Below are positions 17,996 to 60,095 of a stretch of DNA of 64,000 nucleotides, one piece after another. The stretch's first letter is position 1. Each line of letters begins with the position of its first letter. The DNA is from Candidatus Poriferihabitaceae bacterium. GTDB lineage: Bacteria; Pseudomonadota; Gammaproteobacteria; Arenicellales; Poriferihabitantaceae. The notes beneath the pieces were generated by a model. It made no database searches and had not been told where the DNA came from. It saw nothing but the letters and a program-made list of their open reading frames with translations. The stretch spans positions 1,241,778 through 1,305,777 of the forward strand of contig CBDEFQ010000009.1 in assembly GCA_965237485.1 (NCBI GenBank), in the 5' to 3' direction. Made by a program: the position numbers and the translations under genes.

Positions 17996-18233
17996 AATGT
18001 TCTCCTCTTGGTAATTGGTAGTGTACTTACAGTATATTTTGTTTGGATCAGTCATACGTATAAGACTTTAGTATTGCGTAATACAGACCGAAAGTAAACC
18101 GTAAGTCTTGTCCAACATGAAATGATACTGAGCGAAGGGACTGATTCTAATCGGAAATGATACCGAACTAATCTAATTTCTGTTCATGATGGTGAATGAA
18201 TACCGGCAATTTTCAGGGTAGTTGCACATTTTC

Positions 18234-19301
18234 CTACGCAGCCAATAATACTTCTTTTTGTGGGTTCAGCGCAACCGCACCACAAGGCCGCCAATTTCGG
18301 GTTTGGCCAGACCACCGATTAGGTTTTGCTGCTTTAGCTTCCTGATAAACAACTTCTCGTTTTGCTAATAGGGCACTATCTTCACCGCGATAACGCTGGC
18401 CAGGTGTAACGTAGCGTATAGCACTGTGACGATGTTCTTCGTTATACCATTGCATAAACTTACCCACCCATTGGCGGGCGGCCTCTAAGCTATCGAAGCC
18501 TTGAGAAGGCCACGCAGGGCAATACTTTACCGTTCTAAACATGGATTCAATATAAGCGTTGTCATTGCTTACTCTTGGCCTTGAGTAAGAGGGCTTTATT
18601 CCTAATGCTTCTAACTTCGCTCTCATTGTGAACGATTTCATTGGGCTGCCATTATCACTGTGTAAGACGGGCATGCCATCGCAGCTGGCCACTTTTAGAG
18701 CCGCCTGAGACATCAACTGCGCACCTAATTCACCGCTTTCAACAGGATGTACTTCCCAGTGAACGCCATAGCGACTGTAAAGGTCTTCTACCATGTACAG
18801 GTAATAATGCTTGCCAATAGTACGCGTCGCCAAATAGGTGATATCCCACATCCACACAGCATTAGGTTTTAGCGCTATATGAGTATCGGGTGTTCGGGAC
18901 TGCTTTTGTTTGGCGCGGCCGCGGTGCTTCAATTGCCCATGCGCCTTGAGAACTCGATAAAAGCTAGACTCGCTGGCCACATAAATACCTTTGTCAGCCA
19001 ACTGCGGTACTATTTGCGACGGCGGCAAATGATGGTATGCCGATTCATTACATATCGATAAAATGTGTTGCTGCTCTTGCTCGCTTAGTTTATTGCCAGG
19101 GACTGGCTTTTCTACCAAAGGACGTTGATCACTGCGGATACTATCTTCTCCTTTTGGCTTCCAACGTCTAAGCGTAGACTCGGCAAGGCCAACCAACTCA
19201 CAAGCACTTGAACGCTTTGAACCTGCGTCTACTGCTTCATTAACATCATTGATTACTTTAATGCGCGTCTGAGTCGTAATCATACTTCCTCGTCCTCCCA
19301 A
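18234..19301 (-). CDS. IS3-family transposase OrfB (DDE/rve)
   Basis: 355-aa ORF with WMWDITY, LHSDNGSPM and SRPRVSNDNAYIESMFRTVKY, the classical IS3 DD(35)E region. Confidence 0.88.
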   Translation of the reverse strand: MGGRGSMITTQTRIKVINDVNEAVDAGSKRSSACELVGLAESTLRRWKPKGEDSIRSDQRPLVEKPVPGNKLSEQEQQHILSICNESAYHHLPPSQIVPQLADKGIYVASESSFYRVLKAHGQLKHRGRAKQKQSRTPDTHIALKPNAVWMWDITYLATRTIGKHYYLYMVEDLYSRYGVHWEVHPVESGELGAQLMSQAALKVASCDGMPVLHSDNGSPMKSFTMRAKLEALGIKPSYSRPRVSNDNAYIESMFRTVKYCPAWPSQGFDSLEAARQWVGKFMQWYNEEHRHSAIRYVTPGQRYRGEDSALLAKREVVYQEAKAAKPNRWSGQTRNWRPCGAVALNPQKEVLLAA

Positions 19302-19771
19302 AGCGCCTGAAACTTTTTTTGTAATACTAATAATGCGGCCGTTTCAGCCAAGGCTTTATCTTTGCGGCGCAGCTGGGTTTCTAGCTTCTTCTTGTCTTTT
19401 TTTAACGCACGTATTTCATCACGCGCAACTTTAGGGCTAATGAGAGCCTCATCAACACCATTAATACAAGCTTCTCGCCATTGCGTTATTTGAGTAGGGT
19501 ATAGGCCTTTCTCTCGGCAATACGCAGATAATTCTTGTTCATTCATCGCAGCAGTTTCAAGAACTACGGTGAACTTAGTTTGGCAATCCCACTGATTAGA
19601 TGAATCACTATTAGGCATTAAAACTCCTGATCGTCTGGCTTTATTTCGCCAATCATACAAGGTTTGAACACTGATTCCTTCTTCTCTAGATATTTCTGCG
19701 AAGGACTGACTATTTGATGATAATAATTTAGATAAAACAGCTTCTCTTCGTTCTACGCTATATTTCGGCAT
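19280..19771 (-). CDS. IS3-family transposase OrfA (HTH)
   Basis: 163-aa ORF with an HTH region (FAEISREEGISVQTLYDWRNK) and a C-terminal leucine-zipper-like segment. It overlaps orfB at the slippery site. Confidence 0.85.
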   Translation of the reverse strand: MPKYSVERREAVLSKLLSSNSQSFAEISREEGISVQTLYDWRNKARRSGVLMPNSDSSNQWDCQTKFTVVLETAAMNEQELSAYCREKGLYPTQITQWREACINGVDEALISPKVARDEIRALKKDKKKLETQLRRKDKALAETAALLVLQKKFQALWEDEEV

Positions 19772-19841
19772 GAGTATTTCTCCGCCGCCCCTTGTGAATT
19801 AAAATGTGTGCAACTACCCTGACGTCTGGGGATACCATTAT

Positions 19842-20004
19842 CCTAGATAAATCAGTTAAACGCGGAAAAGTCATGTAAGCAATTGAAGTGCATAGTGAAA
19901 TCAAAAAAGTCGCGGTCACCTTATTGGTGATAAGGGTTTTTTTGATTTTGCCAGGTGCATCAAGAGCTTGCATGGACTTTCGTGTTTTAACTGATTTATC
20001 TAGG
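19842..20004 (+). mobile_element. 163-bp foldback MITE, subfamily 1
   Basis: The element runs CCTAGATAAATCAGTTAAACGCG...CGTGTTTTAACTGATTTATCTAGG with a 5-bp TSD ATTAT (19837-19841 / 20005-20009). Copies B and C of the IS lack it at this site (..GAATACCATTATGAATGACC..). Confidence 0.9.
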
Positions 20005-32055: not shown

Positions 32056-32384
32056 GTAACTTCTCAATAACCCGTGGCAAAGCTGGCGCGTTCCATAATG
32101 ATATCTGGCAGAGGATCAATATGTTGCTCACCGATACCAAGTCGATGGGTCAGGTAGTGCCAGAACGATATATCCAGTTTTCGGCAGGTCTTTTTCAAAC
32201 TGGCAAACGTGTCCCGACACTGCTGGCCAGCATCGCTGCGGGTGGAGCCACTCACTTTTCGTTTTTTCACGTAATCGCGAATGTCTGTTTCACTGCCATT
32301 GGTGTGTAACGGAATATCTGGTCGATCTAGCACCAACAGTAATTCTGCTTGATTCGCATGGATTCGTTTGAGCGTCTGATTTAA

Positions 32385-32547
32385 CCTAGATAAATCAGTT
32401 AAAACACGAAAGTCCATGCAAGCTCTTGATGCACCTAGCAAAATCAAAAAAAACCTTATCACCAATAAGGTAACCGCGACTTTTTTGATTTCACTATGCA
32501 CTTCAATTGCTTACATGTCTTTTCCGCGTTTAACTGATTTATCTAGG
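32385..32547 (-). mobile_element. 163-bp foldback MITE, subfamily 1
   Basis: It sits at the same site in the IS66-family transposase as the other three copies. Here its inner end directly abuts the 183-bp deletion. Confidence 0.88.
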
Positions 32548-33160
32548 ATTAAGCGCTCGGTGTGTATCCAACACAAGGCATGAGCCAAAATGTTAAATTG
32601 CCCTGCATCATCACTGACGACAGCGATGTCATCACACAGACCATGATGCAAAATACTACCAAGTAATGCCCCTTCGGTGGTGATACGTCGGTGACGTGCC
32701 TTAATGATCAACAGGCTATCGAGCATTTCAAGCCAGTCATCCTCGTTGGCAATACGGCGTTCCCGGTGCTCAGTTACAGCGGCTAAGGCTTGCTTTGGCA
32801 ATCCATGTTGTTGCCTATAATTCAACGCACTTTGACTCAAACGATAATCCGTATTGCCAGCCCTTAATAGCGGTAGGAAGTTAATTCGACTTTTTGATTG
32901 AGTACTTTTAAACCACGCAAACAAGTCATTACCAATGTGCGTTACATAGCCATTTTTGCCCTGATGGCGAGCACCACTATCGTCCACGGTCACGTAAGAC
33001 GATGCGCTCAGAGCAACGCCTCTTTCTCAGCATGAAAGGGCTCTTTAGTGCTGATCAGTATTGGGTTAATTTGTCCCGAAGAAATATCAATTCCCCACTC
33101 TCGCAACTGTTCCAACAAGAGTGGTTGCGTGGTTTGACAATGATGATATTGATAGAGAAT

Positions 33161-34336
33161 GGGCTCGTCGGTTAATACAATTTCAAACAGGGTTTTCGCC
33201 GAAGTCGCTTTTAGTTTGCTCAGCAACGCGTTTTTTGTGCAATAAACCGTCTATTAGCAGCCATTTTGCCACCAATAGACGGATCTATCCCTAGGCCGGC
33301 ACCAATTCAACTCGTTCAACTCCCAATGCCATTAATCGCTTAAGGTTAAAACATAAGCCCCTGATTCCAACTTGGAACTGGACTTTAGCCAACCCTTTAT
33401 AACGAACTCGCTTATTGCGATGAGCAAACACTCGCTCATATGGTGAACGAATTTTGCTAATCCAACGGTCTTTGTCTCTATTCTTGCCATGCATATTGTT
33501 CTTCTTGATTGTTGCATCATGGCAACCGTTGCGCCTGAGCGTGGTTTTGGCCGGGCTCACGCAATAACCCTTGTCCGCATAAACAGCGCCCGACTTAGGG
33601 CAAACATGCTTCAAGCCGCTTGCATCCGTTACCTCAGCCGAGGTGGCCGCTATTTTATTGATCAAGCCACTTTGCATATCCACTGATGCATGCTCTTTGT
33701 AACCATACCAATATTTGCTATTTCCCTTGCACCCAAACCGTGCTTGCTTGTCCGCCGCAACTTTATCAACTGTCTTATTGTTGAACTCCTCTAATCCCAT
33801 CTTTATCGCCTTATCTCTATCATCCCAAGTGGTTAGCTTACTGACCAACTGGCTGGCATCGACAAATGTGAATACTTCTCGTACTAAGCCCATTGAAACT
33901 AACCCGCTCCGAACACGGTCAAATAAATTCATCATACCCCTGGTTCCAATGCGTGAGCGAAAATCACCAAAGTAACTATGATCAGGAGTGCTCTGTTCCA
34001 GTCCTGAATCACAAAACCACTTAGCGGCCAGATTCTCTGATAAGTATCGCTCCATTTCTCTATCACTTAAATCTTCCATGAACTGAAGCACCAAGGCACG
34101 TAAGCCGAACTCAACACCTCGGCCTTTAGGGCCACGGGTGGCATATATTTTAGAGAAGGGTTTACTCAATGCACCAAAACATAATAGCTCATCGAGTTTA
34201 CGGTAGGGATGTTCAGAGCTAACCAGAGAATCTAAGGTTAGGAACAGTTGGCTTTGATGACGTTTGCTCAAAATTGCAGGCTGACTAGAATCAGCCCATA
34301 TTATCTCACGTATTCTATTAATTATCCGACAAGCCC
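33161..34336 (-). mobile_element. IS5-family insertion sequence nested in the IS66-family element
   Basis: 1176-bp element with IRs GGGCTCGTCGGTTAAT / ATTATCCGACAAGCCC. The host sequence duplicated is AGAAT on the + strand (ATTCT in the IS66 reading direction). The uninterrupted IS66 copy reads ..TTATATTCTCTATCAAT.. Confidence 0.85.
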
Positions 34337-34364
34337 AGAATATAACTGACCAGACGAGGCCCAT
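33291..34364 (-). CDS. IS5-family DDE transposase
   Basis: 357-aa ORF with an InsH-like N-terminal region (HPYRKLDELL..LRALVLQFMEDLSDREME) and DDE regions FVDASQL, VYADKGY and YERVFAHRNK. The ORF-track ATG lies 28 bp outside the IS end, so the native start is probably internal (TTG about 93 nt downstream). Confidence 0.75.
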   Translation of the reverse strand: MGLVWSVIFWACRIINRIREIIWADSSQPAILSKRHQSQLFLTLDSLVSSEHPYRKLDELLCFGALSKPFSKIYATRGPKGRGVEFGLRALVLQFMEDLSDREMERYLSENLAAKWFCDSGLEQSTPDHSYFGDFRSRIGTRGMMNLFDRVRSGLVSMGLVREVFTFVDASQLVSKLTTWDDRDKAIKMGLEEFNNKTVDKVAADKQARFGCKGNSKYWYGYKEHASVDMQSGLINKIAATSAEVTDASGLKHVCPKSGAVYADKGYCVSPAKTTLRRNGCHDATIKKNNMHGKNRDKDRWISKIRSPYERVFAHRNKRVRYKGLAKVQFQVGIRGLCFNLKRLMALGVERVELVPA

Positions 34365-35117
34365 AATGTCGCCCTGCCACGGATGTCGGTCACTGGCCTT
34401 TGAGCTTTTTATTGTCTGGCGTTACCCAATGCGCTAAACGATAGCGGGTGGTATGAACCTTGATAAGCAAATCTTGCACTACAAAATCCCGATAGCCTTT
34501 AAAGCGAGAACCTTCGGGCACGGACTTCGCTGGTTCAATAACCCGATTTAGGTCAATTGACAGCCTTGGTGTTTTCTTTGCCTTGTTCGACCCAGCTCGC
34601 TGCTTAGGTTTGTCGCTAGAAGATGAACGTTTTGGCTCTGTTTTCTTATCCATATTACCGCCCTTAACAGTAGGCCGCCTCTTCTGCCCCTTAAGGATAT
34701 TGATTTCATCTTTAAGCAATGCTATTTCTTCGTCCTGTTGTTGAACTCGCACCAACAGCTGCTCCACTAGCACCCGCAACATTTTTACTGCGGGGGTTTG
34801 TTCTTGTTCAGGAATGTCGGGAATAGAGGGTAGCTTACTCAAGGTCTTAAACGTCCGTTAACTGGATAGACCTTAGTGTACCATCGGTTTTGAAAGTCCA
34901 ATTTTGCCTTCTCAACTGCGCCACAACGAACGTTAAGAAGACACCCCTGAACGTCCTTAAGCGATCTTTGTTATTAGCGTAAAGGTGCCTACAACCACCC
35001 TGGAACTCAACCTAAATCGAGTCACTCGACCACGTTGAATTACCTTCCTTTTAGCGTAAAACCCTGTCAAGAAATATTTTGTTTTATTTTACCTGCCACG
35101 GGTTATTGAGAAGTTAC

Positions 35118-37535: not shown

Positions 37536-37889
37536 TCAGTCAGTAGATGATTTCGGTTTTTCGTAGAAAATATAACTGGTTGAGTAGTCAGAGAACTCAA
37601 AATACACTTTTTGCTCATTTGCATCTTGTTTGGAGTTCAAGTTTTCGTCGAGTACCCCATAACCGAAGCGATAAGGCCGTGGCTGATTGCCGTTGGTGCT
37701 TACTGCGGTAGAAAGTTTATCAACACCCATAAACCGTTTGACCAGCTTGTCACCGGCGTAGACCTCAAGTACTCCATCGGTGCCCGTCCAGTTTTGAACA
37801 GCACGACCGAACTTGTTTTGGGTTTCTTGGGTACAAGCACTTAACAGCAAGCTAGCGAGCGCCACTAATAGGATAGGTTTTAATTGCAT
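37536..37889 (-). CDS. small lipoprotein, unknown function
   Basis: The start is set at MQLKPILLVALASLLLSAC (lipobox LLSAC). It is identical to its mirror copy at 50094-50447. Confidence 0.6.
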   Translation of the reverse strand: MQLKPILLVALASLLLSACTQETQNKFGRAVQNWTGTDGVLEVYAGDKLVKRFMGVDKLSTAVSTNGNQPRPYRFGYGVLDENLNSKQDANEQKVYFEFSDYSTSYIFYEKPKSSTD

Positions 37890-38408
37890 GGTTTTGATGT
37901 GCCTTCTCGGGCTTTGCAAGCAGCGGATATTATAGCGGGAATGACCAGCAATAAGAAATCATCCTTCGCGGGATCCGCATCGGGATTGGGGGTCTTACAC
38001 AGCTCCTCATATTCGATAAGGCTAGCGAACGCGGCACCACTGTCCAGCTACACTTTAGTATGAATTTGCTCGTCCGCTCGTAACTTCTCAATAACCCGTG
38101 GCAAAGCTGGCGCGTTCCATAATGATATCTGGCAGAGGATCAATATGTTGCTCACCGATACCAAGTCGATGGGTCAGGTAGTGCCAGAACGATATATCCA
38201 GTTTTCGGCAGGTCTTTTTCAAACTGGCAAACGTGTCCCGACACTGCTGGCCAGCATCGCTGCGGGTGGAGCCACTCACTTTTCGTTTTTTCACGTAATC
38301 GCGAATGTCTGTTTCACTGCCATTGGTGTGTAACGGAATATCTGGTCGATCTAGCACCAACAGTAATTCTGCTTGATTCGCATGGATTCGTTTGAGCGTC
38401 TGATTTAA

Positions 38409-38571
38409 CCTAGATAAATCAGTTAAAACACGAAAGTCCATGCAAGCTCTTGATGCACCTAGCAAAATCAAAAAAAACCTTATCACCAATAAGGTGACCG
38501 CGACTTTTTTGATTTCACTATGCACTTCAATTGCTTACATGTCTTTTCCGCGTTTAACTGATTTATCTAGG
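38409..38571 (-). mobile_element. 163-bp foldback MITE, subfamily 1
   Basis: Mirror of 49412-49574. Confidence 0.88.
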
Positions 38572-39539
38572 TTTAATGTTTGGTAGCATGTCTGTTGAGT
38601 GAAGATTTCATCGAAACGCTGCTCAAGTATTTTACGTTGGTTCTCGCAAGGCTGGGTTTTATACTCTTTTAACGCCCGATAAAAGCACCAGACTTGGTCG
38701 CGTATTTTAGCCATGCCCTGCCGGTGTCCCTCGTTCAGCGGTATCAACTTATGGATTAAGCGCTCGGTGTGTATCCAGCACAAGGCATGAGCCAAAATGT
38801 TAAATTGCCCTGCATCATCACTGACGACAACGATGTCATCACACAGACCATGATGCAAAATACTACCAAGTAATGCCCCTTCGGTGGTGATACGTCGGTG
38901 ACGTGCCTTAATGATCAACAGGCTATCGAGCATTTCAAGCCAGTCATCCTCGTTGGCAATACGGCGTTCCCGGTGCTCAGTTACAGCGGCTAAGGCTTGC
39001 TTTGGCAATCCATGTTGTTGCCTATAATTCAACGCACTTTGACTCAAACGATAATCCGTATTGCCAGCCCTTAATAGCGGTAGGAAGTTAATTCGACTTT
39101 TTGATTGAGTACTTTTAAACCACGCAAACAAGTCATTACCAATGTGCGTTACATAGCCATTTTTGCCCTGATGGCGAGCACCACTATCGTCCACGGTCAC
39201 GTAAGACGATGCGCTCAGAGCAACGCTTAGTAACGCCTCTTTCTCAGCATGAAAGGGCTCTTTAGCACTGATCAGTATTGGGTTAATTTGTCCCGAAGAA
39301 ATATCAATTCCCCACTCTCGCAACTGTTCCAACAAGAGTGGTTGCGTGGTTTGACAATGATGATATTGATAGAGAATATAACTGACCAGACGAGGCCCAT
39401 AATGTCGCCCTGCCACGGATGTCGGTAACTGGCCTTTGAGCTTTTTATTGTCTGGCGTTACCCAATGCGCTAAACGATAGCGGGTGGTATGAACCTTGAT
39501 AAGCAAATCTTGCACTACAAAATCCCGATAGCCTTTAAA

Positions 39540-39702
39540 CCTAGAAAACTCAGTTGAAACACAAATGTCTGCACAACTCTTTAATATGCCTAAGAAACCC
39601 AGAAAAGCACTCATCACCAATAAGGTGACCTCGTATTTTCTGACTTCCTTATTCATATCAATTAGTTACACATCTTTTTTGCGTTCAACTGGGTTTTCTA
39701 GG
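39540..39702 (-). mobile_element. 163-bp foldback MITE, subfamily 2
   Basis: Mirror of 48281-48443. Confidence 0.88.
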
Positions 39703-40292
39703 TTAAAGCGAGAACCTTCGGGCACGGACTTCGCTGGTTCAATAACCCGATTTAGGTCAATTGACAGCCTTGGTGTTTTCTTTGCCTTGTTCGACCCAGC
39801 TCGCTGCTTAGGTTTGTCGCTAGAAGATGAACGTTTTGGCTCTGTTTTCTTATCCATATTACCGCCCTTAACAGTAGGCCGCCTCTTCTGCCCCTTAAGG
39901 ATATTGATTTCATCTTTAAGCAATGCTATTTCTTCGTCCTGTTGTTGAACTCGCACCAACAGCTGCTCCACTAGCACCCGCAACATTTTTACTGCGGGGG
40001 TTTGTTCTTGTTCAGGAATGTCGGGAATAGAGGGTAGCTTACTCAAGGTCTTAAACGTCCGTTAACTGGATAGACCTTAGTGTACCATCGGTTTTGAAAG
40101 TCCAATTTTGCCTTCTCAACTGCGCCACAACGAACGTTAAGAAGACACCCCTGAACGTCCTTAAGCGATCTTTGTTATTAGCGTAAAGGGGCCTACAACC
40201 ACCCTGGAACTCAACCTAAATCGAGTCACTCGACCACGTTGAATTACCTTCCTTTTAGCGTAAAACCCGGTCAAGAAATATTTTGTTTTATT

Positions 40293-41201
40293 TTACCTGC
40301 CACGGGTTATTGAGAAGTTACATTTTATTTCCCTCATTACTTCGCTTTCTTCGTCTGAAGCCGGAGTATTCAATACCTTAAATTCATCCAATGCAGACAG
40401 CGCCATTTTGGGATGGCCGCAGTGTAAATAAATACCCTGCTTATATATTGCAAGCTGCGCGTTACGCGGCGCTCGATTCACTAAGGTTTCTGCAAGCCCT
40501 GCGTATTCACATAACTCTGGCACACGCCAATTACTTTCTTGAATCAATGCTCGCGCGGCTTCTGCGCCAAACGCTATAGATCGCTCAATCGACTGCTTGA
40601 TCCGAGTTAGCCCTGAATCTTTGTCACCTTTAATTTTAAAAAGCTTGCCTAGCCACTTAAACTCATCTGGAACATTTCCACTGTGATATTCGTATAAGCC
40701 TAATACCAGCATTAAATCTGGCTGATTGGGGTAGACCTCTAGTAAGGCAGCTGCTTGAGCTTTTGCTGATCTAGCCATTCTAAGCACCGAGATAGGCTGG
40801 TTTTGTGCAAACTTAATTCTCGCCGCGTGCGCCTGTGCTAGCACGTAGGCTAATTTGATCTCGTAGTTTGACTGATTACCCGCACGTTTCTTTAGCGCGG
40901 CAACACTCTCAAGCACCTTTTTAAGCCCTGCTCTTCGTCTTTCATTTTTATCTTCGAAATAAGCTTCAACCCAAGCATTTAAAGCCAGATAAAAATCGGC
41001 CAGATAAAACGCTGCATCCCGCCCTTTAAGATTTTCGATTAAGTCCTTCGCCGCGCTGCGCTCTCGGTTCAACATCAGCATATAGGCTTGTTGCATCTGT
41101 GCCTGAATACAGATTTGCGGCTCATCTTGATCTGCAAAACTGATATTTGCTGTGATCATGCTTAACGCTAATAGGGCAGATCGAAACATTGCGTCAGACA
41201 A
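40293..41201 (-). CDS. secreted helical-repeat (TPR-like) hypothetical protein, 3' end fused to or truncated by the IS terminus
   Basis: 302-aa ORF with a signal peptide (ALLALSMITANISFA). The last 8 codons (NFSITRGR) are encoded by the IS66-family terminal repeat, so the native C-terminus is lost or replaced. Confidence 0.5.
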   Translation of the reverse strand: MSDAMFRSALLALSMITANISFADQDEPQICIQAQMQQAYMLMLNRERSAAKDLIENLKGRDAAFYLADFYLALNAWVEAYFEDKNERRRAGLKKVLESVAALKKRAGNQSNYEIKLAYVLAQAHAARIKFAQNQPISVLRMARSAKAQAAALLEVYPNQPDLMLVLGLYEYHSGNVPDEFKWLGKLFKIKGDKDSGLTRIKQSIERSIAFGAEAARALIQESNWRVPELCEYAGLAETLVNRAPRNAQLAIYKQGIYLHCGHPKMALSALDEFKVLNTPASDEESEVMREIKCNFSITRGR

Positions 41202-47132: not shown

Positions 47133-47661
47133 ATGACCCAATCAAACAATAACGTATTTGACGTAGTAGTGGAACACACATCTCAGAAGGCCCCGATGCC
47201 ATGCGCCCCGTGCTCACCGCACTGCTCAATGAGGCGATGAAGATTGAAAGAGAGCCGTTTCCAGGCGCATCACACTATGAGCATAGTCAAGACCGGCCAG
47301 GGTTTGCCCATGGCTACCAGGATAAGCGTATCGATACACAAGCCGGTACGCTCAATCTGCGTATCCCAAAGACCGCTCAACACGTTGATGAACCTTTTTA
47401 CCCTCAATCGCTAGAACGCGGCTTACGCAGCCAACGTGCGATGCTGCTGACCGTTGCTGAAATGTACGTGACGGGCGTTAGCACGCGCCGAGTCGAAAAA
47501 GTCATGCAGAGCATGGGTATTGAAAGCATCTCCTCTACACCGGTCTCACGGGCTAACCAGAGCATGGATGAGGCGTTAAAAGTCTGGCGTGATCGTCCGT
47601 TGGGTAAAGTCTCTTACCTAATCCTTGATGCGCGTTATGAAAAGGTGCGTGAGGGCCACCA
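47133..47661 (+). pseudogene. IS256-family (mutator-type) transposase remnant, frameshifted and truncated by IS66-family insertion
   Basis: The ORF 47201-47665 reads ..AEMYVTGVSTRRVEKVMQSMG..SYLILDARYEKVREG, and stops just after the first catalytic Asp region where the IS66-family IR begins (47662). The upstream ATG at 47133 is in another frame. Confidence 0.7.
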
Positions 47662-47936
47662 GTAACTTCTCAATAACCCGTGGCAGGTAAAATAAAACAA
47701 AATATTTCTTGACCGGGTTTTACGCTAAAAGGAAGGTAATTCAACGTGGTCGAGTGACTCGATTTAGGTTGAGTTCCAGGGTGGTTGTAGGCCCCTTTAC
47801 GCTAATAACAAAGATCGCTTAAGGACGTTCAGGGGTGTCTTCTTAACGTTCGTTGTGGCGCAGTTGAGAAGGCAAAATTGGACTTTCAAAACCGATGGTA
47901 CACTAAGGTCTATCCAGTTAACGGACGTTTAAGACC

Positions 47937-49895
47937 TTGAGTAAGCTACCCTCTATTCCCGACATTCCTGAACAAGAACAAACCCCCGCAGTAAAAATGT
48001 TGCGGGTGCTAGTGGAGCAGCTGTTGGTGCGAGTTCAACAACAGGACGAAGAAATAGCATTGCTTAAAGATGAAATCAATATCCTTAAGGGGCAGAAGAG
48101 GCGGCCTACTGTTAAGGGCGGTAATATGGATAAGAAAACAGAGCCAAAACGTTCATCTTCTAGCGACAAACCTAAGCAGCGAGCTGGGTCGAACAAGGCA
48201 AAGAAAACACCAAGGCTGTCAATTGACCTAAATCGGGTTATTGAACCAGCGAAGTCCGTGCCCGAAGGTTCTCGCTTTAACCTAGAAAACCCAGTTGAAC
48301 GCAAAAAAGATGTGTAACTAATTGATATGAATAAGGAAGTCAGAAAATACGAGGTCACCTTATTGGTGATGAGTGCTTTTCTGGGTTTCTTAGGCATATT
48401 AAAGAGTTGTGCAGACATTTGTGTTTCAACTGAGTTTTCTAGGTTTAAAGGCTATCGGGATTTTGTAGTGCAAGATTTGCTTATCAAGGTTCATACCACC
48501 CGCTATCGTTTAGCGCATTGGGTAACGCCAGACAATAAAAAGCTCAAAGGCCAGTTACCGACATCCGTGGCAGGGCGACATTATGGGCCTCGTCTGGTCA
48601 GTTATATTCTCTATCAATATCATCATTGTCAAACCACGCAACCACTCTTGTTGGAACAGTTGCGAGAGTGGGGAATTGATATTTCTTCGGGACAAATTAA
48701 CCCAATACTGATCAGTGCTAAAGAGCCCTTTCATGCTGAGAAAGAGGCGTTACTAAGCGTTGCTCTGAGCGCATCGTCTTACGTGACCGTGGACGATAGT
48801 GGTGCTCGCCATCAGGGCAAAAATGGCTATGTAACGCACATTGGTAATGACTTGTTTGCGTGGTTTAAAAGTACTCAATCAAAAAGTCGAATTAACTTCC
48901 TACCGCTATTAAGGGCTGGCAATACGGATTATCGTTTGAGTCAAAGTGCGTTGAATTATAGGCAACAACATGGATTGCCAAAGCAAGCCTTAGCCGCTGT
49001 AACTGAGCACCGGGAACGCCGTATTGCCAACGAGGATGACTGGCTTGAAATGCTCGATAGCCTGTTGATCATTAAGGCACGTCACCGACGTATCACCACC
49101 GAAGGGGCATTACTTGGTAGTATTTTGCATCATGGTCTGTGTGATGACATCGTTGTCGTCAGTGATGATGCAGGGCAATTTAACATTTTGGCTCATGCCT
49201 TGTGCTGGATACACACCGAGCGCTTAATCCATAAGTTGATACCGCTGAACGAGGGACACCGGCAGGGCATGGCTAAAATACGCGACCAAGTCTGGTGCTT
49301 TTATCGGGCGTTAAAAGAGTATAAAACCCAGCCTTGCGAGAACCAACGTAAAATACTTGAGCAGCGTTTCGATGAAATCTTCACTCAACAGACATGCTAC
49401 CAAACATTAAACCTAGATAAATCAGTTAAACGCGGAAAAGACATGTAAGCAATTGAAGTGCATAGTGAAATCAAAAAAGTCGCGGTCACCTTATTGGTGA
49501 TAAGGTTTTTTTTGATTTTGCTAGGTGCATCAAGAGCTTGCATGGACTTTCGTGTTTTAACTGATTTATCTAGGTTAAATCAGACGCTCAAACGAATCCA
49601 TGCGAATCAAGCAGAATTACTGTTGGTGCTAGATCGACCAGATATTCCGTTACACACCAATGGCAGTGAAACAGACATTCGCGATTACGTGAAAAAACGA
49701 AAAGTGAGTGGCTCCACCCGCAGCGATGCTGGCCAGCAGTGTCGGGACACGTTTGCCAGTTTGAAAAAGACCTGCCGAAAACTGGATATATCGTTCTGGC
49801 ACTACCTGACCCATCGACTTGGTATCGGTGAGCAACATATTGATCCTCTGCCAGATATCATTATGGAACGCGCCAGCTTTGCCACGGGTTATTGA
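47937..49895 (+). CDS. IS66-family transposase reading frame, split into three same-phase segments (126 + 373 + 145 codons) by two MITEs
   Basis: Joined without the MITEs, it is a 541-codon frame. It has an N-terminal coiled coil, DDE-type regions VDDSGARH and VSDDAGQF, the IS66-typical CWIHTERL motif and TNGSETDIR. Confidence 0.75.
48281..48443 (+). mobile_element. 163-bp foldback MITE, subfamily 2
   Basis: The element runs CCTAGAAAACCCAGTTGAACGC...GTTTCAACTGAGTTTTCTAGG with TSD TTTAA (48276-48280 / 48444-48448). The empty site is visible in copy R2 (..CTCGCTTTAAAGGCTAT.., 53474-53490). Confidence 0.9.
49412..49574 (+). mobile_element. 163-bp foldback MITE, subfamily 1
   Basis: TSD TTAAA (49407-49411 / 49575-49579). 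It is present at the identical site in all four IS66-family copies. Confidence 0.9.
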
Positions 49896-50093
49896 GAAGT
49901 TACGAGCGGACGAGCAAATTCATACTAAAGTGTAGCTGGACAGTGGTGCCGCGTTCGCTAGCCTTATCGAATATGAGGAGCTGTGTAAGACCCCCAATCC
50001 CGATGCGGATCCCGCGAAGGATGATTTCTTATTGCTGGTCATTCCCGCTATAATATCCGCTGCTTGCAAAGCCCGAGAAGGCACATCAAAACC

Positions 50094-50447
50094 ATGCAAT
50101 TAAAACCTATCCTATTAGTGGCGCTCGCTAGCTTGCTGTTAAGTGCTTGTACCCAAGAAACCCAAAACAAGTTCGGTCGTGCTGTTCAAAACTGGACGGG
50201 CACCGATGGAGTACTTGAGGTCTACGCCGGTGACAAGCTGGTCAAACGGTTTATGGGTGTTGATAAACTTTCTACCGCAGTAAGCACCAACGGCAATCAG
50301 CCACGGCCTTATCGCTTCGGTTATGGGGTACTCGACGAAAACTTGAACTCCAAACAAGATGCAAATGAGCAAAAAGTGTATTTTGAGTTCTCTGACTACT
50401 CAACCAGTTATATTTTCTACGAAAAACCGAAATCATCTACTGACTGA
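50094..50447 (+). CDS. small lipoprotein, unknown function
   Basis: Lipobox LLSAC. Duplicate of 37536-37889. Confidence 0.6.
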   Translation: MQLKPILLVALASLLLSACTQETQNKFGRAVQNWTGTDGVLEVYAGDKLVKRFMGVDKLSTAVSTNGNQPRPYRFGYGVLDENLNSKQDANEQKVYFEFSDYSTSYIFYEKPKSSTD

Positions 50448-50582
50448 TTTGTTGGTTAGCAAACGGCTAGCCCTTGTGTACCCCGCTTCTTCGGCCTCGC
50501 CAAAGTAATAGATGAGTTGTGATTTCTTGTTACAATTTAGCCCACTCTACTAAAGGCCTTAGACGCACCTACCCTAAAAACC

Positions 50583-51923
50583 ATGTTAGCCCTAATCCGT
50601 TCCGTACTAAGATTTGGTCTTCCCATCTTAGTGCTTGGCCTATTCTTATTTGCTGGTAAGCAACTTCTGGATACGGCACCAGATCAACAGCGGCGCCCCA
50701 AAACTGCCAATCCACCCATGGTAGAGGTTCTGAACTTAGCGCCGCAAAGCTATCAAGTTCGATTAAAAAGCCATGGGCTAGTACAAGCGACCAAACAAAG
50801 CACGATTTCTGCCGAAGTTAAGGGGCGCGTCATCAAATTATCACCCAAGCTTCACGTTGGCGGGCTATTCAAAAAGGATGAAGTGTTAGTTGAAATTGAC
50901 GATTCCGATCTTCAGCAAAAATTGATTATTGTTAAAGCTGAGCTAGCCCAAGCCCAAGCCCAACTGACATTAGAACAAGGTGATGCTGAGCGCGACCAGG
51001 TGTTACGTGACCGCGCACTGTTAGGATTAAGTGGAGAACCCAGCAAACTGGCATTACGGGAACCGCAACGAAAAAGCAATGAAGCCGCCTTGGCTGCGGC
51101 GAAAGCGCGCGTTGCTCAAGCGAGAACCCAACTGACACGAACTAAAATAAATGCCCCATTTGACAGTCGCATTATCACCAAGCAGGTAAGTATAAATCAG
51201 TTTGTAAATGCCGGAACAACGCTTTTAGAATTAGTCGCAACGGATAAGATTGAGGTGCGCCTACCCCTTACTGCTAAGCAGCTGTCCTTCCTCAATCTTG
51301 AGGCACTATCTAATGAAGCGGGGCCGAATGTCGCCATTGAGGGTAGTGAAAAAAAACCAACTTCTGTACGCAGAGGGACATTAGTGCGTAGCGAAGGCAT
51401 AGTAAATGCACAAAGCTTACAGCAGTATGTGGTGGCTGAAGTGGCACAGCCCTTTGTAAAAAGCGCTGATGGTGGGCAAGCGCTCACATTGGGTCAATTT
51501 GTAAGTGCTCAAATTGATGCTACCGTGTTAAATGATGTTTGGGTCATCCCGCGCAACTCCACTAAAAATAATACTCACATTCAACTTGTTTCAAAGGACA
51601 ACAAACTAATTCATAAACAAATTACCCTGCTATGGGCCGATGCGGAGAATGTTGTTATCCGAGATGGAATTGAAGTTGGTCAGCGGCTAATTAAAACTCC
51701 AATTGCTTTAGCCGCAGAAGGAATAAACGTATCAATAGCAGGAGAATCACCAAAAGGCGAAGCTAACGAATCTGGAAATAATCTAAGCCAGAAGTTTAAA
51801 GCTCTGACTAAAGAACTAGCATTAGAAAAGTGCCAAGCTTTTAAGGCTTTACCAGAACATAAGAAAATGGAAGTTTTGAATTTGCCTGCCGACAAACAAC
51901 GTGCGTTCTTTGAAACACTTTAA
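50583..51923 (+). CDS. RND efflux periplasmic adaptor (membrane fusion protein)
   Basis: Identical 446-aa duplicate of 36060-37400. Confidence 0.8.
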   Translation: MLALIRSVLRFGLPILVLGLFLFAGKQLLDTAPDQQRRPKTANPPMVEVLNLAPQSYQVRLKSHGLVQATKQSTISAEVKGRVIKLSPKLHVGGLFKKDEVLVEIDDSDLQQKLIIVKAELAQAQAQLTLEQGDAERDQVLRDRALLGLSGEPSKLALREPQRKSNEAALAAAKARVAQARTQLTRTKINAPFDSRIITKQVSINQFVNAGTTLLELVATDKIEVRLPLTAKQLSFLNLEALSNEAGPNVAIEGSEKKPTSVRRGTLVRSEGIVNAQSLQQYVVAEVAQPFVKSADGGQALTLGQFVSAQIDATVLNDVWVIPRNSTKNNTHIQLVSKDNKLIHKQITLLWADAENVVIRDGIEVGQRLIKTPIALAAEGINVSIAGESPKGEANESGNNLSQKFKALTKELALEKCQAFKALPEHKKMEVLNLPADKQRAFFETL

Positions 51924-51958
51924 ACCTTGCTAATGTCAAATCAGCCACAGAATCTAAG

Positions 51959-52865: not shown

Positions 52866-53618
52866 GTAACTTCTCAATAACCCGTGGCAGGTAAAATAAA
52901 ACAAAATATTTCTTGACAGGGTTTTACGCTAAAAGGAAGGTAATTCAACGTGGTCGAGTGACTCGATTTAGGTTGAGTTCCAGGGTGGTTGTAGGCACCT
53001 TTACGCTAATAACAAAGATCGCTTAAGGACGTTCAGGGGTGTCTTCTTAACGTTCGTTGTGGCGCAGTTGAGAAGGCAAAATTGGACTTTCAAAACCGAT
53101 GGTACACTAAGGTCTATCCAGTTAACGGACGTTTAAGACCTTGAGTAAGCTACCCTCTATTCCCGACATTCCTGAACAAGAACAAACCCCCGCAGTAAAA
53201 ATGTTGCGGGTGCTAGTGGAGCAGCTGTTGGTGCGAGTTCAACAACAGGACGAAGAAATAGCATTGCTTAAAGATGAAATCAATATCCTTAAGGGGCAGA
53301 AGAGGCGGCCTACTGTTAAGGGCGGTAATATGGATAAGAAAACAGAGCCAAAACGTTCATCTTCTAGCGACAAACCTAAGCAGCGAGCTGGGTCGAACAA
53401 GGCAAAGAAAACACCAAGGCTGTCAATTGACCTAAATCGGGTTATTGAACCAGCGAAGTCCGTGCCCGAAGGTTCTCGCTTTAAAGGCTATCGGGATTTT
53501 GTAGTGCAAGATTTGCTTATCAAGGTTCATACCACCCGCTATCGTTTAGCGCATTGGGTAACGCCAGACAATAAAAAGCTCAAAGGCCAGTGACCGACAT
53601 CCGTGGCAGGGCGACATT

Positions 53619-54692
53619 ATGGGCCTCGTCTGGTCAGTTATATTCTGGGCTTGTCGGATAATTAATAGAATACGTGAGATAATATGGGCTGATTCTAGTC
53701 AGCCTGCAATTTTGAGCAAACGTCATCAAAGCCAACTGTTCCTAACCTTAGATTCTCTGGTTAGCTCTGAACATCCCTACCGTAAACTCGATGAGCTATT
53801 ATGTTTTGGTGCATTGAGTAAACCCTTCTCTAAAATATATGCCACCCGTGGCCCTAAAGGCCGAGGTGTTGAGTTCGGCTTACGTGCCTTGGTGCTTCAG
53901 TTCATGGAAGATTTAAGTGATAGAGAAATGGAGCGATACTTATCAGAGAATCTGGCCGCTAAGTGGTTTTGTGATTCAGGACTGGAACAGAGCACTCCTG
54001 ATCATAGTTACTTTGGTGATTTTCGCTCACGCATTGGAACCAGGGGTATGATGAATTTATTTGACCGTGTTCGGAGCGGGTTAGTTTCAATGGGCTTAGT
54101 ACGAGAAGTATTCACATTTGTCGATGCCAGCCAGTTGGTCAGTAAGCTAACCACTTGGGATGATAGAGATAAGGCGATAAAGATGGGATTAGAGGAGTTC
54201 AACAATAAGACAGTTGATAAAGTTGCGGCGGACAAGCAAGCACGGTTTGGGTGCAAGGGAAATAGCAAATATTGGTATGGTTACAAAGAGCATGCATCAG
54301 TGGATATGCAAAGTGGCTTGATCAATAAAATAGCGGCCACCTCGGCTGAGGTAACGGATGCAAGCGGCTTGAAGCATGTTTGCCCTAAGTCGGGCGCTGT
54401 TTATGCGGACAAGGGTTATTGCGTGAGCCCGGCCAAAACCACGCTCAGGCGCAACGGTTGCCATGATGCAACAATCAAGAAGAACAATATGCATGGCAAG
54501 AATAGAGACAAAGACCGTTGGATTAGCAAAATTCGTTCACCATATGAGCGAGTGTTTGCTCATCGCAATAAGCGAGTTCGTTATAAAGGGTTGGCTAAAG
54601 TCCAGTTCCAAGTTGGAATCAGGGGCTTATGTTTTAACCTTAAGCGATTAATGGCATTGGGAGTTGAACGAGTTGAATTGGTGCCGGCCTAG
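53619..54692 (+). CDS. IS5-family DDE transposase
   Basis: Identical to 33291-34364. The ORF-track ATG is outside the IS boundary, and a likely internal TTG start lies at 53712. Confidence 0.75.
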   Translation: MGLVWSVIFWACRIINRIREIIWADSSQPAILSKRHQSQLFLTLDSLVSSEHPYRKLDELLCFGALSKPFSKIYATRGPKGRGVEFGLRALVLQFMEDLSDREMERYLSENLAAKWFCDSGLEQSTPDHSYFGDFRSRIGTRGMMNLFDRVRSGLVSMGLVREVFTFVDASQLVSKLTTWDDRDKAIKMGLEEFNNKTVDKVAADKQARFGCKGNSKYWYGYKEHASVDMQSGLINKIAATSAEVTDASGLKHVCPKSGAVYADKGYCVSPAKTTLRRNGCHDATIKKNNMHGKNRDKDRWISKIRSPYERVFAHRNKRVRYKGLAKVQFQVGIRGLCFNLKRLMALGVERVELVPA

Positions 54693-54822
54693 GGATAGAT
54701 CCGTCTATTGGTGGCAAAATGGCTGCTAATAGACGGTTTATTGCACAAAAAACGCGTTGCTGAGCAAACTAAAAGCGACTTCGGCGAAAACCCTGTTTGA
54801 AATTGTATTAACCGACGAGCCC
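53647..54822 (+). mobile_element. IS5-family insertion sequence nested in the IS66-family element
   Basis: IRs GGGCTTGTCGGATAATTAAT / ..ATTAACCGACGAGCCC, flanked by duplicated ATTCT. Confidence 0.85.
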
Positions 54823-55618
54823 ATTCTCTATCAATATCATCATTGTCAAACCACGCAACCACTCTTGTTGGAACAGTTGCGAGAGTGGGGAATTGATATT
54901 TCTTCGGGACAAATTAACCCAATACTGATCAGCACTAAAGAGCCCTTTCATGCTGAGAAAGAGGCGTTGCTCTGAGCGCATCGTCTTACGTGACCGTGGA
55001 CGATAGTGGTGCTCGCCATCAGGGCAAAAATGGCTATGTAACGCACATTGGTAATGACTTGTTTGCGTGGTTTAAAAGTACTCAATCAAAAAGTCGAATT
55101 AACTTCCTACCGCTATTAAGGGCTGGCAATACGGATTATCGTTTGAGTCAAAGTGCGTTGAATTATAGGCAACAACATGGATTGCCAAAGCAAGCCTTAG
55201 CCGCTGTAACTGAGCACCGGGAACGCCGTATTGCTAACGAGGATGACTGGCTTGAAATGCTCGATAGCCTGTTGATCATTAAGGCACGTCACCGACGTAT
55301 CACCACCGAAGGGGCATTACTTGGTAGTATTTTGCATCATGGTCTGTGTGATGACATCGTTGTCGTCAGTGATGATGCAGGGCAATTTAACATTTTGGCT
55401 CATGCCTTGTGTTGGATACACACCGAGCGCTTAATCCATAAGTTGATACCGCTGAACGAGGGACACCGGCAGGGCATGGCTAAAATACGCGACCAAGTCT
55501 GGTGCTTTTATCGGGCGTTAAAAGAGTATAAAACCCAGCCTTGCGAGAACCAACGTAAAATACTTGAGCAGCGTTTCGATGAAATCTTCACTCAACAGAC
55601 ATGCTACCAAACATTAAA

Positions 55619-55781
55619 CCTAGATAAATCAGTTAAACGCGGAAAAGACATGTAAGCAATTGAAGTGCATAGTGAAATCAAAAAAGTCGCGGTCACCTTA
55701 TTGGTGATAAGGTTTTTTTTGATTTTGCTAGGTGCATCAAGAGCTTGCATGGACTTTCGTGTTTTAACTGATTTATCTAGG
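55619..55781 (+). mobile_element. 163-bp foldback MITE, subfamily 1
   Basis: Same insertion site as 49412-49574, with intact flanks here, unlike the mirror copy at 32385-32547. Confidence 0.88.
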
Positions 55782-56176
55782 TTAAATCAGACGCTCAAAC
55801 GAATCCATGCGAATCAAGCAGAATGACTGTTGGTGCTAGATCGACCAGATATTCCGTTACACACCAATGGCAGTGAAACAGACATTCGCGATTACGTGAA
55901 AAAACGAAAAGTGAGTGGCTCCACCCGCAGCGATGCTGGCCAGCAGTGTCGGGACACGTTTGCCAGTTTGAAAAAGACCTGCCGAAAACTGGATATATCG
56001 TTCTGGCACTACCTGACCCATCGACTTGGTATCGGTGAGCAACATATTGATCCTCTGCCAGATATCATTATGGAACGCGCCAGCTTTGCCACGGGTTATT
56101 GAGAAGTTACCCTATTGATTGCTATCTATTTGATAAGATTGATGTCTCTACTATTAAAGCCCTGTCGCTGCGAATA

Positions 56177-60013: not shown

Positions 60014-60095
60014 GTTTGTTCTCTCCAGAGATTGAGTTATTAAAAAATACAAATTGTAAGTCACGGTATACTAACAATGTTTTTAGTTGATATCC

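What the first reader, a model, noticed from the sequence alone, without database searches (positions are those of the whole stretch)
49412..49574. 163-bp foldback MITE behaves as an in-frame stop/restart cassette inside transposase genes and hitch-hikes on the IS66-family element
The element is a 163-bp imperfect hairpin with arms of about 79 nt and an apical GGTCACC-TTATT-GGTGAT. With its 5-bp TSD it adds exactly 168 bp, which is 56 codons.

Read in the host frame, it gives an 11-codon tail (LDKSVKRGKDM), a TAA stop, three codons, and then a GTG in the same frame. That GTG reopens the frame into the rest of the transposase (MHSEIKKVAVTLLVI..LSRLNQTLKRIH..).

All three independent insertions in this window have the same orientation and the same codon phase, with the element's first C as the third codon position:
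- this site
- 48281 in the same IS
- 19842 in an unrelated IS

The chance expectation for that agreement is about (1/6)^2.

This insertion is present in both IS66-family copies of the arm (R1 and R2) and in their mirror copies. So the IS was copied after acquiring the MITE, which suggests the split transposase still works, or works in trans.
Basis: partly seen in the sequence, partly recalled or inferred. Interest (0 to 1): 0.72.

Follow-up and report, generated by a model that had tools for sequence, protein, structure and literature searches.

The report
Small hairpin transposon nested in transposase genes
The 163-bp hairpin is a real miniature transposon of a widespread, apparently undescribed family that has landed inside other mobile elements' transposase genes, but nothing indicates it works as a designed stop/restart cassette: here it simply breaks those genes, and the broken elements most likely spread using an intact copy found elsewhere in the same genome.

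Summary
The sequence observation is correct. The element is a 163-bp foldback with a 5-bp target duplication, so it adds 168 bp. In the host frame it reads LDKSVKRGKDM, then TAA, then three codons, then GTG. An unoccupied site for the second copy lies in the window.

The functional reading is not supported.
- The TAA is a C/T polymorphism that the hairpin tolerates: TAA in 12 of 22 family members, CAA or CAG in 10.
- No Shine-Dalgarno sequence precedes the GTG.
- The third "insertion" sits at the start codon, not inside a coding sequence.
- The same genome holds an identical copy in the opposite orientation, stop-free and in frame, in an acyltransferase gene.
- In other genomes none of 25 copies interrupts the body of a gene.

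Hitch-hiking on the IS66-family element is supported. Pieces carrying the element lie on three contigs of this assembly. That assembly also has an intact 540-aa copy without it, and a frameshifted lineage has spread too. Mobilisation in trans explains all of this.

What is really there is a member of a broad family in Gamma- and Zetaproteobacteria and Magnetococcales.
- Tips (CCTAG) and 5-bp AT-rich duplications resemble ISEcp1 of the IS1380 family.
- Length is fixed at 163 bp.
- The hairpin is maintained by compensatory changes on one strand only.
- One orientation is stop-free and occurs as 56-residue in-frame inserts in real proteins, like Rickettsia palindromic elements.

The parts
49412..49574 (+). 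The MITE of the finding (A-type), a 163-bp foldback
   Evidence: Ends are CCTAGATAAATCAG.../...CTGATTTATCTAGG. RNA fold of the + strand is -82.3 kcal/mol (z = -13.8).
49407..49411 (.). Left copy of the 5-bp target duplication TTAAA. The right copy is at 49575-49579.
   Evidence: The unoccupied site is seen at protein level (CYQTLN|QTLK) in P0326, P0330 and P0199.
49446..49448 (+). In-frame TAA, codon 12 of the element in the host frame
   Evidence: This codon is TAA in 12 and CAA/CAG in 10 of 22 family members. The C/T column pairs with G, giving CG in 9 and UG in 8 sequences.
49458..49460 (+). In-frame GTG proposed as the restart codon
   Evidence: GTG in 18 of 22 members, but it lies in a conserved paired stem segment and has no Shine-Dalgarno sequence upstream.
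49485..49501 (+). Apical stem-loop (GTCACC-TTATT-GGTGAT), followed by a T run and preceded by an A run; looks like a terminator
   Evidence: a pattern match only.
48281..48443 (+). B-type MITE in the same transposase gene. Its duplication TTTAA is at 48276-48280 and 48444-48448.
   Evidence: The unoccupied site is in R2 at 53480-53484.
47662..49903 (+). IS66-family element R1 (2242 bp; 1906 bp without the two MITEs). Inverted repeats begin GTAACTTCTCAATAACCCGTGG. The transposase ORF is split into 47937-48317, 48327-49448 and 49458-49895.
   Evidence: Removing both MITEs gives a 540-aa protein colinear with homologues of 539-540 aa.
52866..56110 (+). IS66-family element R2. It has the A-type MITE at 55619-55781 and no B-type MITE. 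It is decayed: a nonsense change at 53592, a 10-bp deletion, and an IS5-like insertion.
53647..54822 (+). IS5-like element (DUF772 plus DDE_Tnp_1) nested in R2, flanked by ATTCT on both sides
38080..40321 (-). Mirror copy of R1, with MITEs at 38409-38571 and 39540-39702
32056..35117 (-). Mirror copy of R2, with a MITE at 32385-32547. That MITE has an apex C-to-T change, and a 176-bp deletion abuts its left end.
19842..20004 (+). A-type MITE (3 mismatches to 49412). Its duplication ATTAT overlaps the ATG (20008) of an rve-type transposase gene.
18204..19826 (-). IS3-like element (HTH_Tnp_1 plus rve/rve_3) inserted 5 bp from the 19842 MITE in the same IS copy, flanked by ATACC on both sides

Best explanation
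The element is a non-autonomous miniature transposon (MITE) of a broad, apparently undescribed family.

Shown:
- It inserts at AT-rich WTNAW pentamers with a 5-bp duplication.
- Its length is fixed at 163 bp, so every insertion adds 168 bp and keeps the downstream frame automatically.
- Its tips resemble the ISEcp1 inverted repeat of the IS1380 family.
- In the '+' orientation found in the window, each copy brings a TAA at its 12th codon.

Inferred:
- It is moved by an IS1380/piggyBac-type DDE transposase that I did not find.
- The three window insertions persist because IS transposase genes are dispensable.
- The stable + strand hairpin with its T run would hinder transcription or translation.
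- The IS66 transposase is therefore truncated, not split and reassembled.
- The IS66::MITE-A allele then multiplied, using transposase supplied in trans by intact copies in the same genome.

The shared phase follows partly from the target. WTNAW can never hold a stop codon in phase 3, and about 40-48% of such sites in coding sequence are in that phase. The rest is chance with n = 3.
For: Anatomy and insertion:
- Element, duplication and unoccupied site.
- Family: more than 95 stretches in GTDB genomes. Length is 163 bp in 26 of 31 copies with perfect duplications. The duplications fit WTNAW.
- Tips: the ISEcp1 left repeat CCTAGATTCTACGT with 5-bp repeats was verified. The best arm alignment scores 11 against 2.9 +/- 1.4 for shuffles.

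Host transposase:
- Removing the MITEs restores an intact 540-aa protein with a PF03050 match, colinear with homologues.
- The cuts fall after residues 114 and 436. The second is inside the domain match at 352-489.
- R2 shows further decay.

Same genome:
- An intact copy without the MITE, P0326.
- MITE-bearing pieces on three contigs.
- An identical frameshift lineage on three contigs.

Other points:
- The stop codon is polymorphic and there is no Shine-Dalgarno sequence.
- Target phase frequencies.
- Other genomes: intergenic positions, with 37 sense against 46 antisense gene neighbours.
Against: - All three window insertions, and the one in-frame copy found elsewhere in the genome, are in phase 3. 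The three window ones also share orientation. With about 0.2 per extra event this is a nominal P of about 0.04, so a real preference cannot be excluded.
- No autonomous IS1380-type partner was found in the window or in about 0.6 Mb of related loci.
- I could not read the DNA of the other IS66::MITE-A loci. Their transposition, as opposed to recombination, is inferred from contig membership alone.
- No 8-bp duplication flanks any IS66 copy in the window.
Confidence: 0.75

Rival explanations
1. One reading: the element is a programmed termination-reinitiation cassette. Ribosomes stop at the TAA and restart at the GTG 9 nt later. The transposase is then made as two or three polypeptides that still function.
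For: - The stop and a start codon lie 9 nt apart in frame in both A and B types.
- GTG or ATG occupies codon 16 in 19 of 22 members.
- MITE-bearing IS66 copies have multiplied.
Against: - The TAA is absent from 10 of 22 members and is a structurally neutral C/T change.
- There is no Shine-Dalgarno sequence, and the GTG lies in a conserved stem.
- One cut falls inside the DDE-domain match.
- An intact copy exists in the genome, and frameshifted copies spread too.
- The 19842 copy lies before the start codon.
- The opposite orientation occurs in the same genome.
Confidence: 0.04
2. The family is shaped by selection to be translatable, like Rickettsia palindromic elements. On this view, length 168 (56 codons) and stop-poor phase-3 frames let copies survive inside genes as peptide inserts. 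The window copies are simply the less permissive orientation.
For: - Phase 3 carries 0.78 ('-') and 1.5 ('+') stops per copy, against 3.3-4.8 in the other four frames. The '-' phase-3 frame is stop-free in 16 of 27 copies, including divergent subfamilies.
- Real in-frame hosts exist. In P0433, removing the insert restores a single PF07456 match covering 1-144 of 147. P0454 has the order REC, MITE, Hpt. P0385, P0443 and P0424 are further cases.
Against: - Most of the 617 hits are short ORFs that probably reflect gene calls over intergenic copies. Only about 5 of the best 150 are clear hosts.
- The '+' frame is stop-free in only 5 of 27 copies.
- CTAG at both tips forces a stop in phases 1 and 2 anyway.
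- Shared ancestry makes the low stop count close to a single observation.
- The search used phase-3 peptides, so it cannot measure phase preference.
Confidence: 0.25
3. The element acts as an orientation-dependent RNA hairpin or terminator. In '+' orientation it silences the transposase it lands in, which would be a selective benefit to the host or to the MITE.
For: - A run, stem-loop, T run at the apex. The terminator pattern is matched on the + strand in both types.
- The hairpin is conserved on the + strand only: 160 G-T against 18 A-C cells, and MFE of -88 against -59 kcal/mol in 17 of 17 sequences.
- All window copies are in sense orientation.
Against: - There is no orientation bias relative to neighbouring genes in other genomes: 3' ends 21 sense to 28 antisense, 5' ends 16 to 18.
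- The apical stem is weak (6 pairs, 3 of them G-C).
- The pattern scan is not functional evidence, and there are no expression data.
Confidence: 0.15

Closest known systems
Bacterial MITEs in general (for example Correia/NEMIS, ERIC, RUP, QMITE1 and QMITE2)
   Same: Small size, terminal inverted repeats, a target duplication, many copies, mostly intergenic positions, a stable hairpin, and no transposase of its own (reviews PMC10969869 and PMC5896051).
   Different: - The whole 163 nt pairs, not just the tips.
- Pairing is kept by compensatory changes on one strand only.
- Length is unusually constant.
- Its sequence was not found in the paper library or in Rfam.
Rickettsia palindromic elements (RPEs)
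   Same: Palindromic elements of about 150 bp found in frame inside protein-coding genes as peptide inserts (PMC10969869). Here, 56-residue inserts occur in a heptaprenyl diphosphate synthase component, a REC-Hpt protein, an acyltransferase and others.
   Different: - The sequence is unrelated and the hosts are different (Gamma- and Zetaproteobacteria, Magnetococcales).
- Only a small minority of copies are intragenic.
- It has clear 5-bp duplications and CCTAG tips.
- One orientation carries a stop codon.
ISEcp1 and the IS1380 family (related to piggyBac)
   Same: CCTAGA tips and 5-bp AT-rich target duplications. ISEcp1's left repeat CCTAGATTCTACGT and its 5-bp repeats were verified. Partial similarity extends about 30 nt into the arm.
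   Different: - No IS1380-type transposase was found in the window or in related loci.
- Similarity beyond the tip is weak.
- Mobilisation by such an enzyme is inferred, not shown.
Nested transposable elements, and defective ISs mobilised in trans
   Same: MITE, IS3-like and IS5-like elements sit inside IS66-family, rve-type and IS256-type elements in the window. Dead IS66 copies are multiplied while an intact copy is present.
   Different: Nothing essential. This is the ordinary reading.

Membership tests
MITE (non-autonomous DNA transposon) | Small size with terminal inverted repeats | tested here: met
   163 bp; the tips CCTAGATAAATCAG and CTGATTTATCTAGG match at 14 of 14 positions.
MITE (non-autonomous DNA transposon) | Target-site duplication, with an unoccupied site available for comparison | tested here: met
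   5-bp duplications at all three sites. A single TTTAA in R2 marks the unoccupied B-type site. MITE-free transposases show the unoccupied A-type site.
MITE (non-autonomous DNA transposon) | Many dispersed copies, with no transposase gene inside | tested here: met
   More than 95 stretches in GTDB genomes; 617 protein-level hits; no frame longer than 54 codons.
MITE (non-autonomous DNA transposon) | An autonomous partner with matching ends | tested here: inconclusive
   The tips resemble ISEcp1. No IS1380-type transposase or full-length element with these ends was found in the window or the 95 loci.
IS1380-family-derived element | Ends beginning CC(T)AG and 4-5-bp AT-rich duplications | tested here: met
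   CCTAG tips; duplications fit WTNAW; ISEcp1's left repeat and 5-bp repeats verified (PMC6061673).
IS1380-family-derived element | Mobilised by an IS1380-family transposase | not testable with these tools
   This needs the cognate enzyme and a transposition assay.
RPE-like in-frame palindromic element | Insert length a multiple of three, and stop-free in the host frame | tested here: met
   Met for '-' orientation in phase 3: 168 bp added, stop-free in 16 of 27 copies. Not met for the window copies, which are '+' and carry one TAA.
RPE-like in-frame palindromic element | Found inside real protein-coding genes with the host domain intact on both sides | tested here: met
   P0433: removing the insert gives a single PF07456 match covering 1-144 of 147. 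P0454: REC at 47-158, the MITE at 157-223, Hpt at 266-332.
RPE-like in-frame palindromic element | Sequence homology to the Rickettsia RPE families | not tested
   No RPE sequences were compared. The hosts and tips differ, so only the behaviour is claimed to be similar.
Termination-reinitiation (stop/restart) cassette | Stop and start codons a few nucleotides apart in the same frame | tested here: met
   TAA at 49446, GTG at 49458; in the B type, TAA then ATG.
Termination-reinitiation (stop/restart) cassette | The stop, the start and a ribosome-binding signal are conserved as a unit | tested here: not met
   TAA in only 12 of 22 members; no Shine-Dalgarno sequence; the C/T change is neutral for the hairpin.
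Termination-reinitiation (stop/restart) cassette | The downstream segment is translated and the product works | not testable with these tools
   This needs a reporter, ribosome profiling or proteomics.
IS66 family (the host element) | Transposase with the DDE_Tnp_IS66 domain | tested here: met
   PF03050 at E = 1e-12 on the reconstructed 540-aa protein. There are 7924 homologues at E below 1e-20, and most of the 120 best listed carry PF03050.
IS66 family (the host element) | Terminal repeats beginning GTAA and an 8-bp duplication | tested here: inconclusive
   The repeats begin GTAACTTC. No matching 8-bp flanks were found on any of the four copies, all of which sit at rearrangement borders.
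IS66 family (the host element) | Accessory tnpA and tnpB genes | tested here: not met
   The element has a single ORF. From memory, this layout matches the single-ORF ISBst12-type group of the family.

The most novel reading that the evidence does not exclude
The family may be an orientation-dependent module rather than a neutral parasite.
- One strand is built to fold. Its hairpin is kept by compensatory and G-U changes on the + strand only, which points to an RNA or single-stranded-DNA stage.
- Read in sense, that strand brings a stop codon and a terminator-like apex.
- The other strand is built to be read: 56 stop-free codons and a weaker hairpin. It persists as in-frame inserts in real proteins across several bacterial classes.

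A termination-reinitiation effect in the '+' orientation would be one facet of this.
Probability: 0.15. Interest if true: 0.6.

Novelty: new member of a known kind. Interest (0 to 1): 0.36.

Why it matters
For the finding as written, little changes. It is a nested insertion that kills transposase genes, and the dead elements then spread in trans.

The family itself is a modest but real addition:
- It is a broad-host MITE with ISEcp1-like tips.
- It shows that in-frame peptide insertion of the Rickettsia type also occurs in free-living and marine proteobacteria.
- Its hairpin is conserved on one strand only, which is a concrete handle on how such elements are recognised or moved.
- It breaks short-read assemblies. 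Many copies lie at contig ends in a Thiotrichales MAG.
- It seeds hundreds of spurious "hypothetical protein" gene calls.

Tried and rejected
- Rfam: only far-sub-threshold matches to miRNA-precursor families, which reflect a generic long hairpin.
- BLAST of the element against plasmids: no match.
- Search for a full-length IS with the same arms in the window and 95 loci: none.
- tblastn with the ISEcp1 transposase: no hit.
- Exact IS66::MITE-A junction in metagenome contigs: no hit.
- The look-up of encoding contigs for five proteins of this assembly: not on record. I therefore could not read the DNA of the other loci, and the organism name was not recovered.
- The word-indexed protein search returned only proteins shorter than 100 aa for the 54-aa peptide profiles. 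That first suggested there were no in-frame hosts. The exhaustive HMMER search overturned this.
- Candidate "intragenic" copies L084 and L008 lie just upstream of signal-peptide starts. L002, L034, L011 and L095 span only short ORFs that do not look coding.
- 8-bp duplications around the IS66 copies, including pairings expected after an inversion: none.
- Assembly artefact as an explanation for the mirror copies: rejected, because the arms differ by a 176-bp deletion and a substitution.
Full report
**1. The observation**

- 49412-49574 is a 163-nt sequence whose two halves pair almost end to end. The apex is GGTCACC-TTATT-GGTGAT.
- As RNA the + strand folds at -82.3 kcal/mol, against -32 for shuffles (z = -13.8).
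- TTAAA flanks it on both sides, so 168 bp were added.
- Translating 47937-49898 in one frame gives the transposase reading into LDKSVKRGKDM, then TAA, three codons, GTG, and then an open frame to the natural stop. A second, diverged copy at 48281-48443 does the same: LENPVERKKDV, a stop, then ATG.

The apex motif occurs seven times in the window, against 0.04 expected. Four of those are secondary.
- The window holds an inverted duplication, 32056-40321 against 47662-56110.
- Each arm is a unit of the form IS66 copy R1, a 3-kb HlyD/AcrB fragment, IS66 copy R2.
- That leaves three independent insertions: 49412 (A-type), 48281 (B-type, about 75% identical) and 19842 (A-type, 3 mismatches).

R2 lacks the B-type copy and shows a single TTTAA at 53480-53484. 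This is a true unoccupied site and proves insertion with a 5-bp duplication.

**2. The host genes**

- Removing both MITEs from R1 gives a 540-aa protein. It matches DDE_Tnp_IS66 (PF03050) and is colinear over 100% of its length with homologues of 539-540 aa, the best at 88% identity.
- The insertions fall after residues 114 and 436. The second lies inside the domain match at 352-489.
- R2 is further decayed: a nonsense change, a 10-bp deletion and a 1176-bp IS5-like insertion.

The third insertion is different in kind.
- Its duplication ATTAT overlaps the ATG of an rve-type transposase. At most four codons lie upstream.
- The left end of that IS copy lies 1.6 kb away, because an IS3-like element sits 5 bp from the MITE.
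- The whole transposase is encoded downstream of the MITE, so "stop/restart" has no meaning there.

**3. The family**

Most are Gammaproteobacteria: Thiotrichales, Ectothiorhodospiraceae, Oceanospirillaceae, Cellvibrionaceae, Microbulbifer, Oleiphilus and Methylophaga. Ghiorsea and Magnetococcales also carry it. A few hits are chance matches.
- Of 31 copies with perfect 5-bp duplications, 26 are exactly 163 bp. The duplications fit WTNAW. Frame preservation is therefore a property of the family, not of these insertions.
- The tips (CCTAGA...) and the 5-bp AT-rich duplications match ISEcp1 of the IS1380 family.
  - I verified its left repeat, CCTAGATTCTACGT, and its 5-bp direct repeats (PMC6061673).
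  - The best arm alignment scores 11, against 2.9 +/- 1.4 for shuffles.
- No IS1380-type transposase, and no full-length element with these arms, was found in the window or in the loci. The partner is inferred.
- Rfam has no family for it, and no paper in the library holds the apex sequence.

**4. The hairpin is under selection, on one strand**

On 17 diverse copies:
- 41 of 64 pairs show changes on both sides.
- 94.9% of cells pair, against 38-44% when partners are slid by one to three columns.
- None of 500 shuffles reaches the observed values.
- G-T cells outnumber A-C cells 160 to 18.
- The + strand folds better than the - strand in 17 of 17 sequences (mean -88 against -59 kcal/mol).

A duplex palindrome decaying neutrally should show equal numbers of the two mismatch types. 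So the structure matters in single-stranded form, as RNA or as DNA.

I have no explanation for this. Copies show no orientation bias relative to neighbouring genes: 37 sense against 46 antisense.

The apex looked invariant in my DNA set, but that is partly ascertainment. Protein-level hits show variation in the loop (LITNKVT, LITKKVT, LITTEVT, LITPKVT).

**5. Testing the stop/restart reading**

- Codon 12 is TAA in 12 of 22 distinct 163-bp copies and CAA or CAG in 10. The C/T column pairs with a G (CG in 9, UG in 8), so the stop is a structurally neutral polymorphism, not a conserved feature.
- Codon 16 is GTG in 18 of 22. But it lies in a conserved paired segment (GTGCAT occurs on both arms), and nothing resembling a Shine-Dalgarno sequence precedes it.
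- Both apices match a simple terminator pattern on the + strand. That is a pattern match only.
- A working enzyme would need three polypeptides to assemble, with the catalytic domain cut.

**6. Phase and orientation**

- WTNAW cannot contain a stop codon in phase 3.
- In 23 long ORFs of the window such sites fall 41-46% in phase 1, 14-21% in phase 2 and 39-40% in phase 3. In the IS66 gene the split is 48-52%, 4-9% and 39-48%.
- The chance that a further insertion repeats both phase and orientation is about 0.18-0.23.
- That figure rests on three events picked after the fact, one of which is not inside a gene.
- In other genomes, none of 25 complete copies interrupts the body of a long ORF. Several lie within about 10 codons of an ORF end. 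The best candidates, L084 and L008, sit just upstream of signal-peptide starts.

**7. The window's own genome**

Exact look-ups place three window proteins on a contig of 1,444,552 bp in an NCBI/ENA assembly. The 90% cluster of the IS66 transposase has 27 members from that assembly.
- **Intact copy:** a 540-aa copy without the MITE (P0326, on the 106,560-bp contig).
- **Pieces with the unoccupied A-type site:** P0330, P0331 and P0322.
- **Pieces that start inside the MITE:** MDFRVLTDLSR-LN-QTLK... on the 1.44-Mb, 575-kb and 855-kb contigs (P0319, P0321, P0328).
- **Frameshift lineage:** three 434-aa pieces sharing one frameshift, on those same three contigs.
- **Cargo gene:** the HlyD gene of the composite unit is on one contig only.

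So IS66::MITE-A is dispersed beyond the local duplication. Copies that are doubly dead have also spread while an intact copy is available, so supply in trans is the simplest account.

I could not read the DNA of those loci.

**8. An unexpected positive result**

- Phase 3 is stop-poor in both orientations: 1.5 stops for '+' and 0.78 for '-', against 3.3-4.8 in the other frames. The '-' frame is stop-free in 16 of 27 copies.
- An exhaustive HMMER search with the '-' phase-3 peptide found 617 proteins. Most are short ORFs, probably gene calls over intergenic copies. Some are real hosts.

| Protein | Host | Evidence |
|---|---|---|
| P0433 | Heptaprenyl diphosphate synthase component I | Removing the 56 residues turns a two-piece PF07456 match into a single one covering 1-144 of 147 |
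| P0454 | Response regulator | REC at 47-158, the MITE at 157-223, Hpt at 266-332 |
| P0443 | Magnetococcales nitrite/sulfite reductase | MITE peptide at 523-586 of 748 residues |
| P0424 | NAD-dependent epimerase | MITE peptide near the N terminus |
| P0385 | 400-aa acyltransferase | Insert identical to the window's A-type peptide; lies on the 575,117-bp contig of the same assembly |

P0385 is in the opposite orientation to the window copies and has no stop. This is the behaviour known from Rickettsia palindromic elements and a few other MITEs (PMC10969869).

It also shows that orientation is not fixed in this genome. Phase 3 in a functional gene is what survives selection.

**9. Verdict**

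The sequence facts are right and the hitch-hiking is supported. The cassette function and the non-random phase are not supported. What is there is a new member of a known kind: a MITE with ISEcp1-like tips and an RPE-like in-frame capacity. One feature remains unexplained, the conservation of the hairpin on one strand only.

Noticed in passing
Alignment A4 of 17 family members (includes window 49412-49574 and 48281-48443): The hairpin is conserved on the + strand only. G-T pair cells outnumber A-C cells 160 to 18, and the + strand folds at -88 against -59 kcal/mol in 17 of 17 copies. This points to a single-stranded RNA or DNA stage. I have no explanation, because orientation relative to neighbouring genes is random.
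   Followed up: partly
Window 32056-40321 against 47662-56110: An 8.4-kb inverted duplication of a composite unit (IS66, HlyD/AcrB fragment, IS66) around a 7.3-kb spacer. The arms are identical except for a 176-bp deletion and one substitution. It may be an invertible segment. No target duplications lie at any border.
   Followed up: partly
Window 32547-32552 (left end of the MITE at 32385-32547): A 176-bp deletion of IS66 sequence ends exactly at the MITE's left tip and removes that copy of the duplication. It looks like an adjacent deletion made by transposase activity or by slippage at the hairpin.
   Followed up: no
Window 18104-21278: One rve-type IS copy was hit twice within 5 bp just before its start codon: by an IS3-like element (18204-19826, flanked by ATACC) and by the MITE (flanked by ATTAT). 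It is the only one of three copies whose transposase ORF has no frameshift; the copies near 30200-31600 and 60030-61400 are frameshifted.
   Followed up: partly
Window 47201-47665: A fragment of an IS256-type (Transposase_mut) gene is cut off exactly at the left end of IS66 copy R1. This region is several layers of nested mobile elements.
   Followed up: no
Proteins P0385, P0433, P0454, P0443 and P0424: The family occurs as 56-residue in-frame inserts in real proteins, bracketed by residues encoded by the duplication (xN-L[EDK]...SR-xN). One case is in the window's own genome.
   Followed up: partly
Loci L006-L093 from JANTGD01 (Thiotrichales MAG bin10046): Dozens of contigs of this MAG end inside a copy of the element, so the family is abundant enough there to fragment a short-read assembly.
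   Followed up: no
For 54-residue profiles, the word-indexed protein search returned only proteins under 100 aa. The exhaustive search found hosts of 200-750 aa. A null result from the first tool on short queries should not be trusted.
   Followed up: yes
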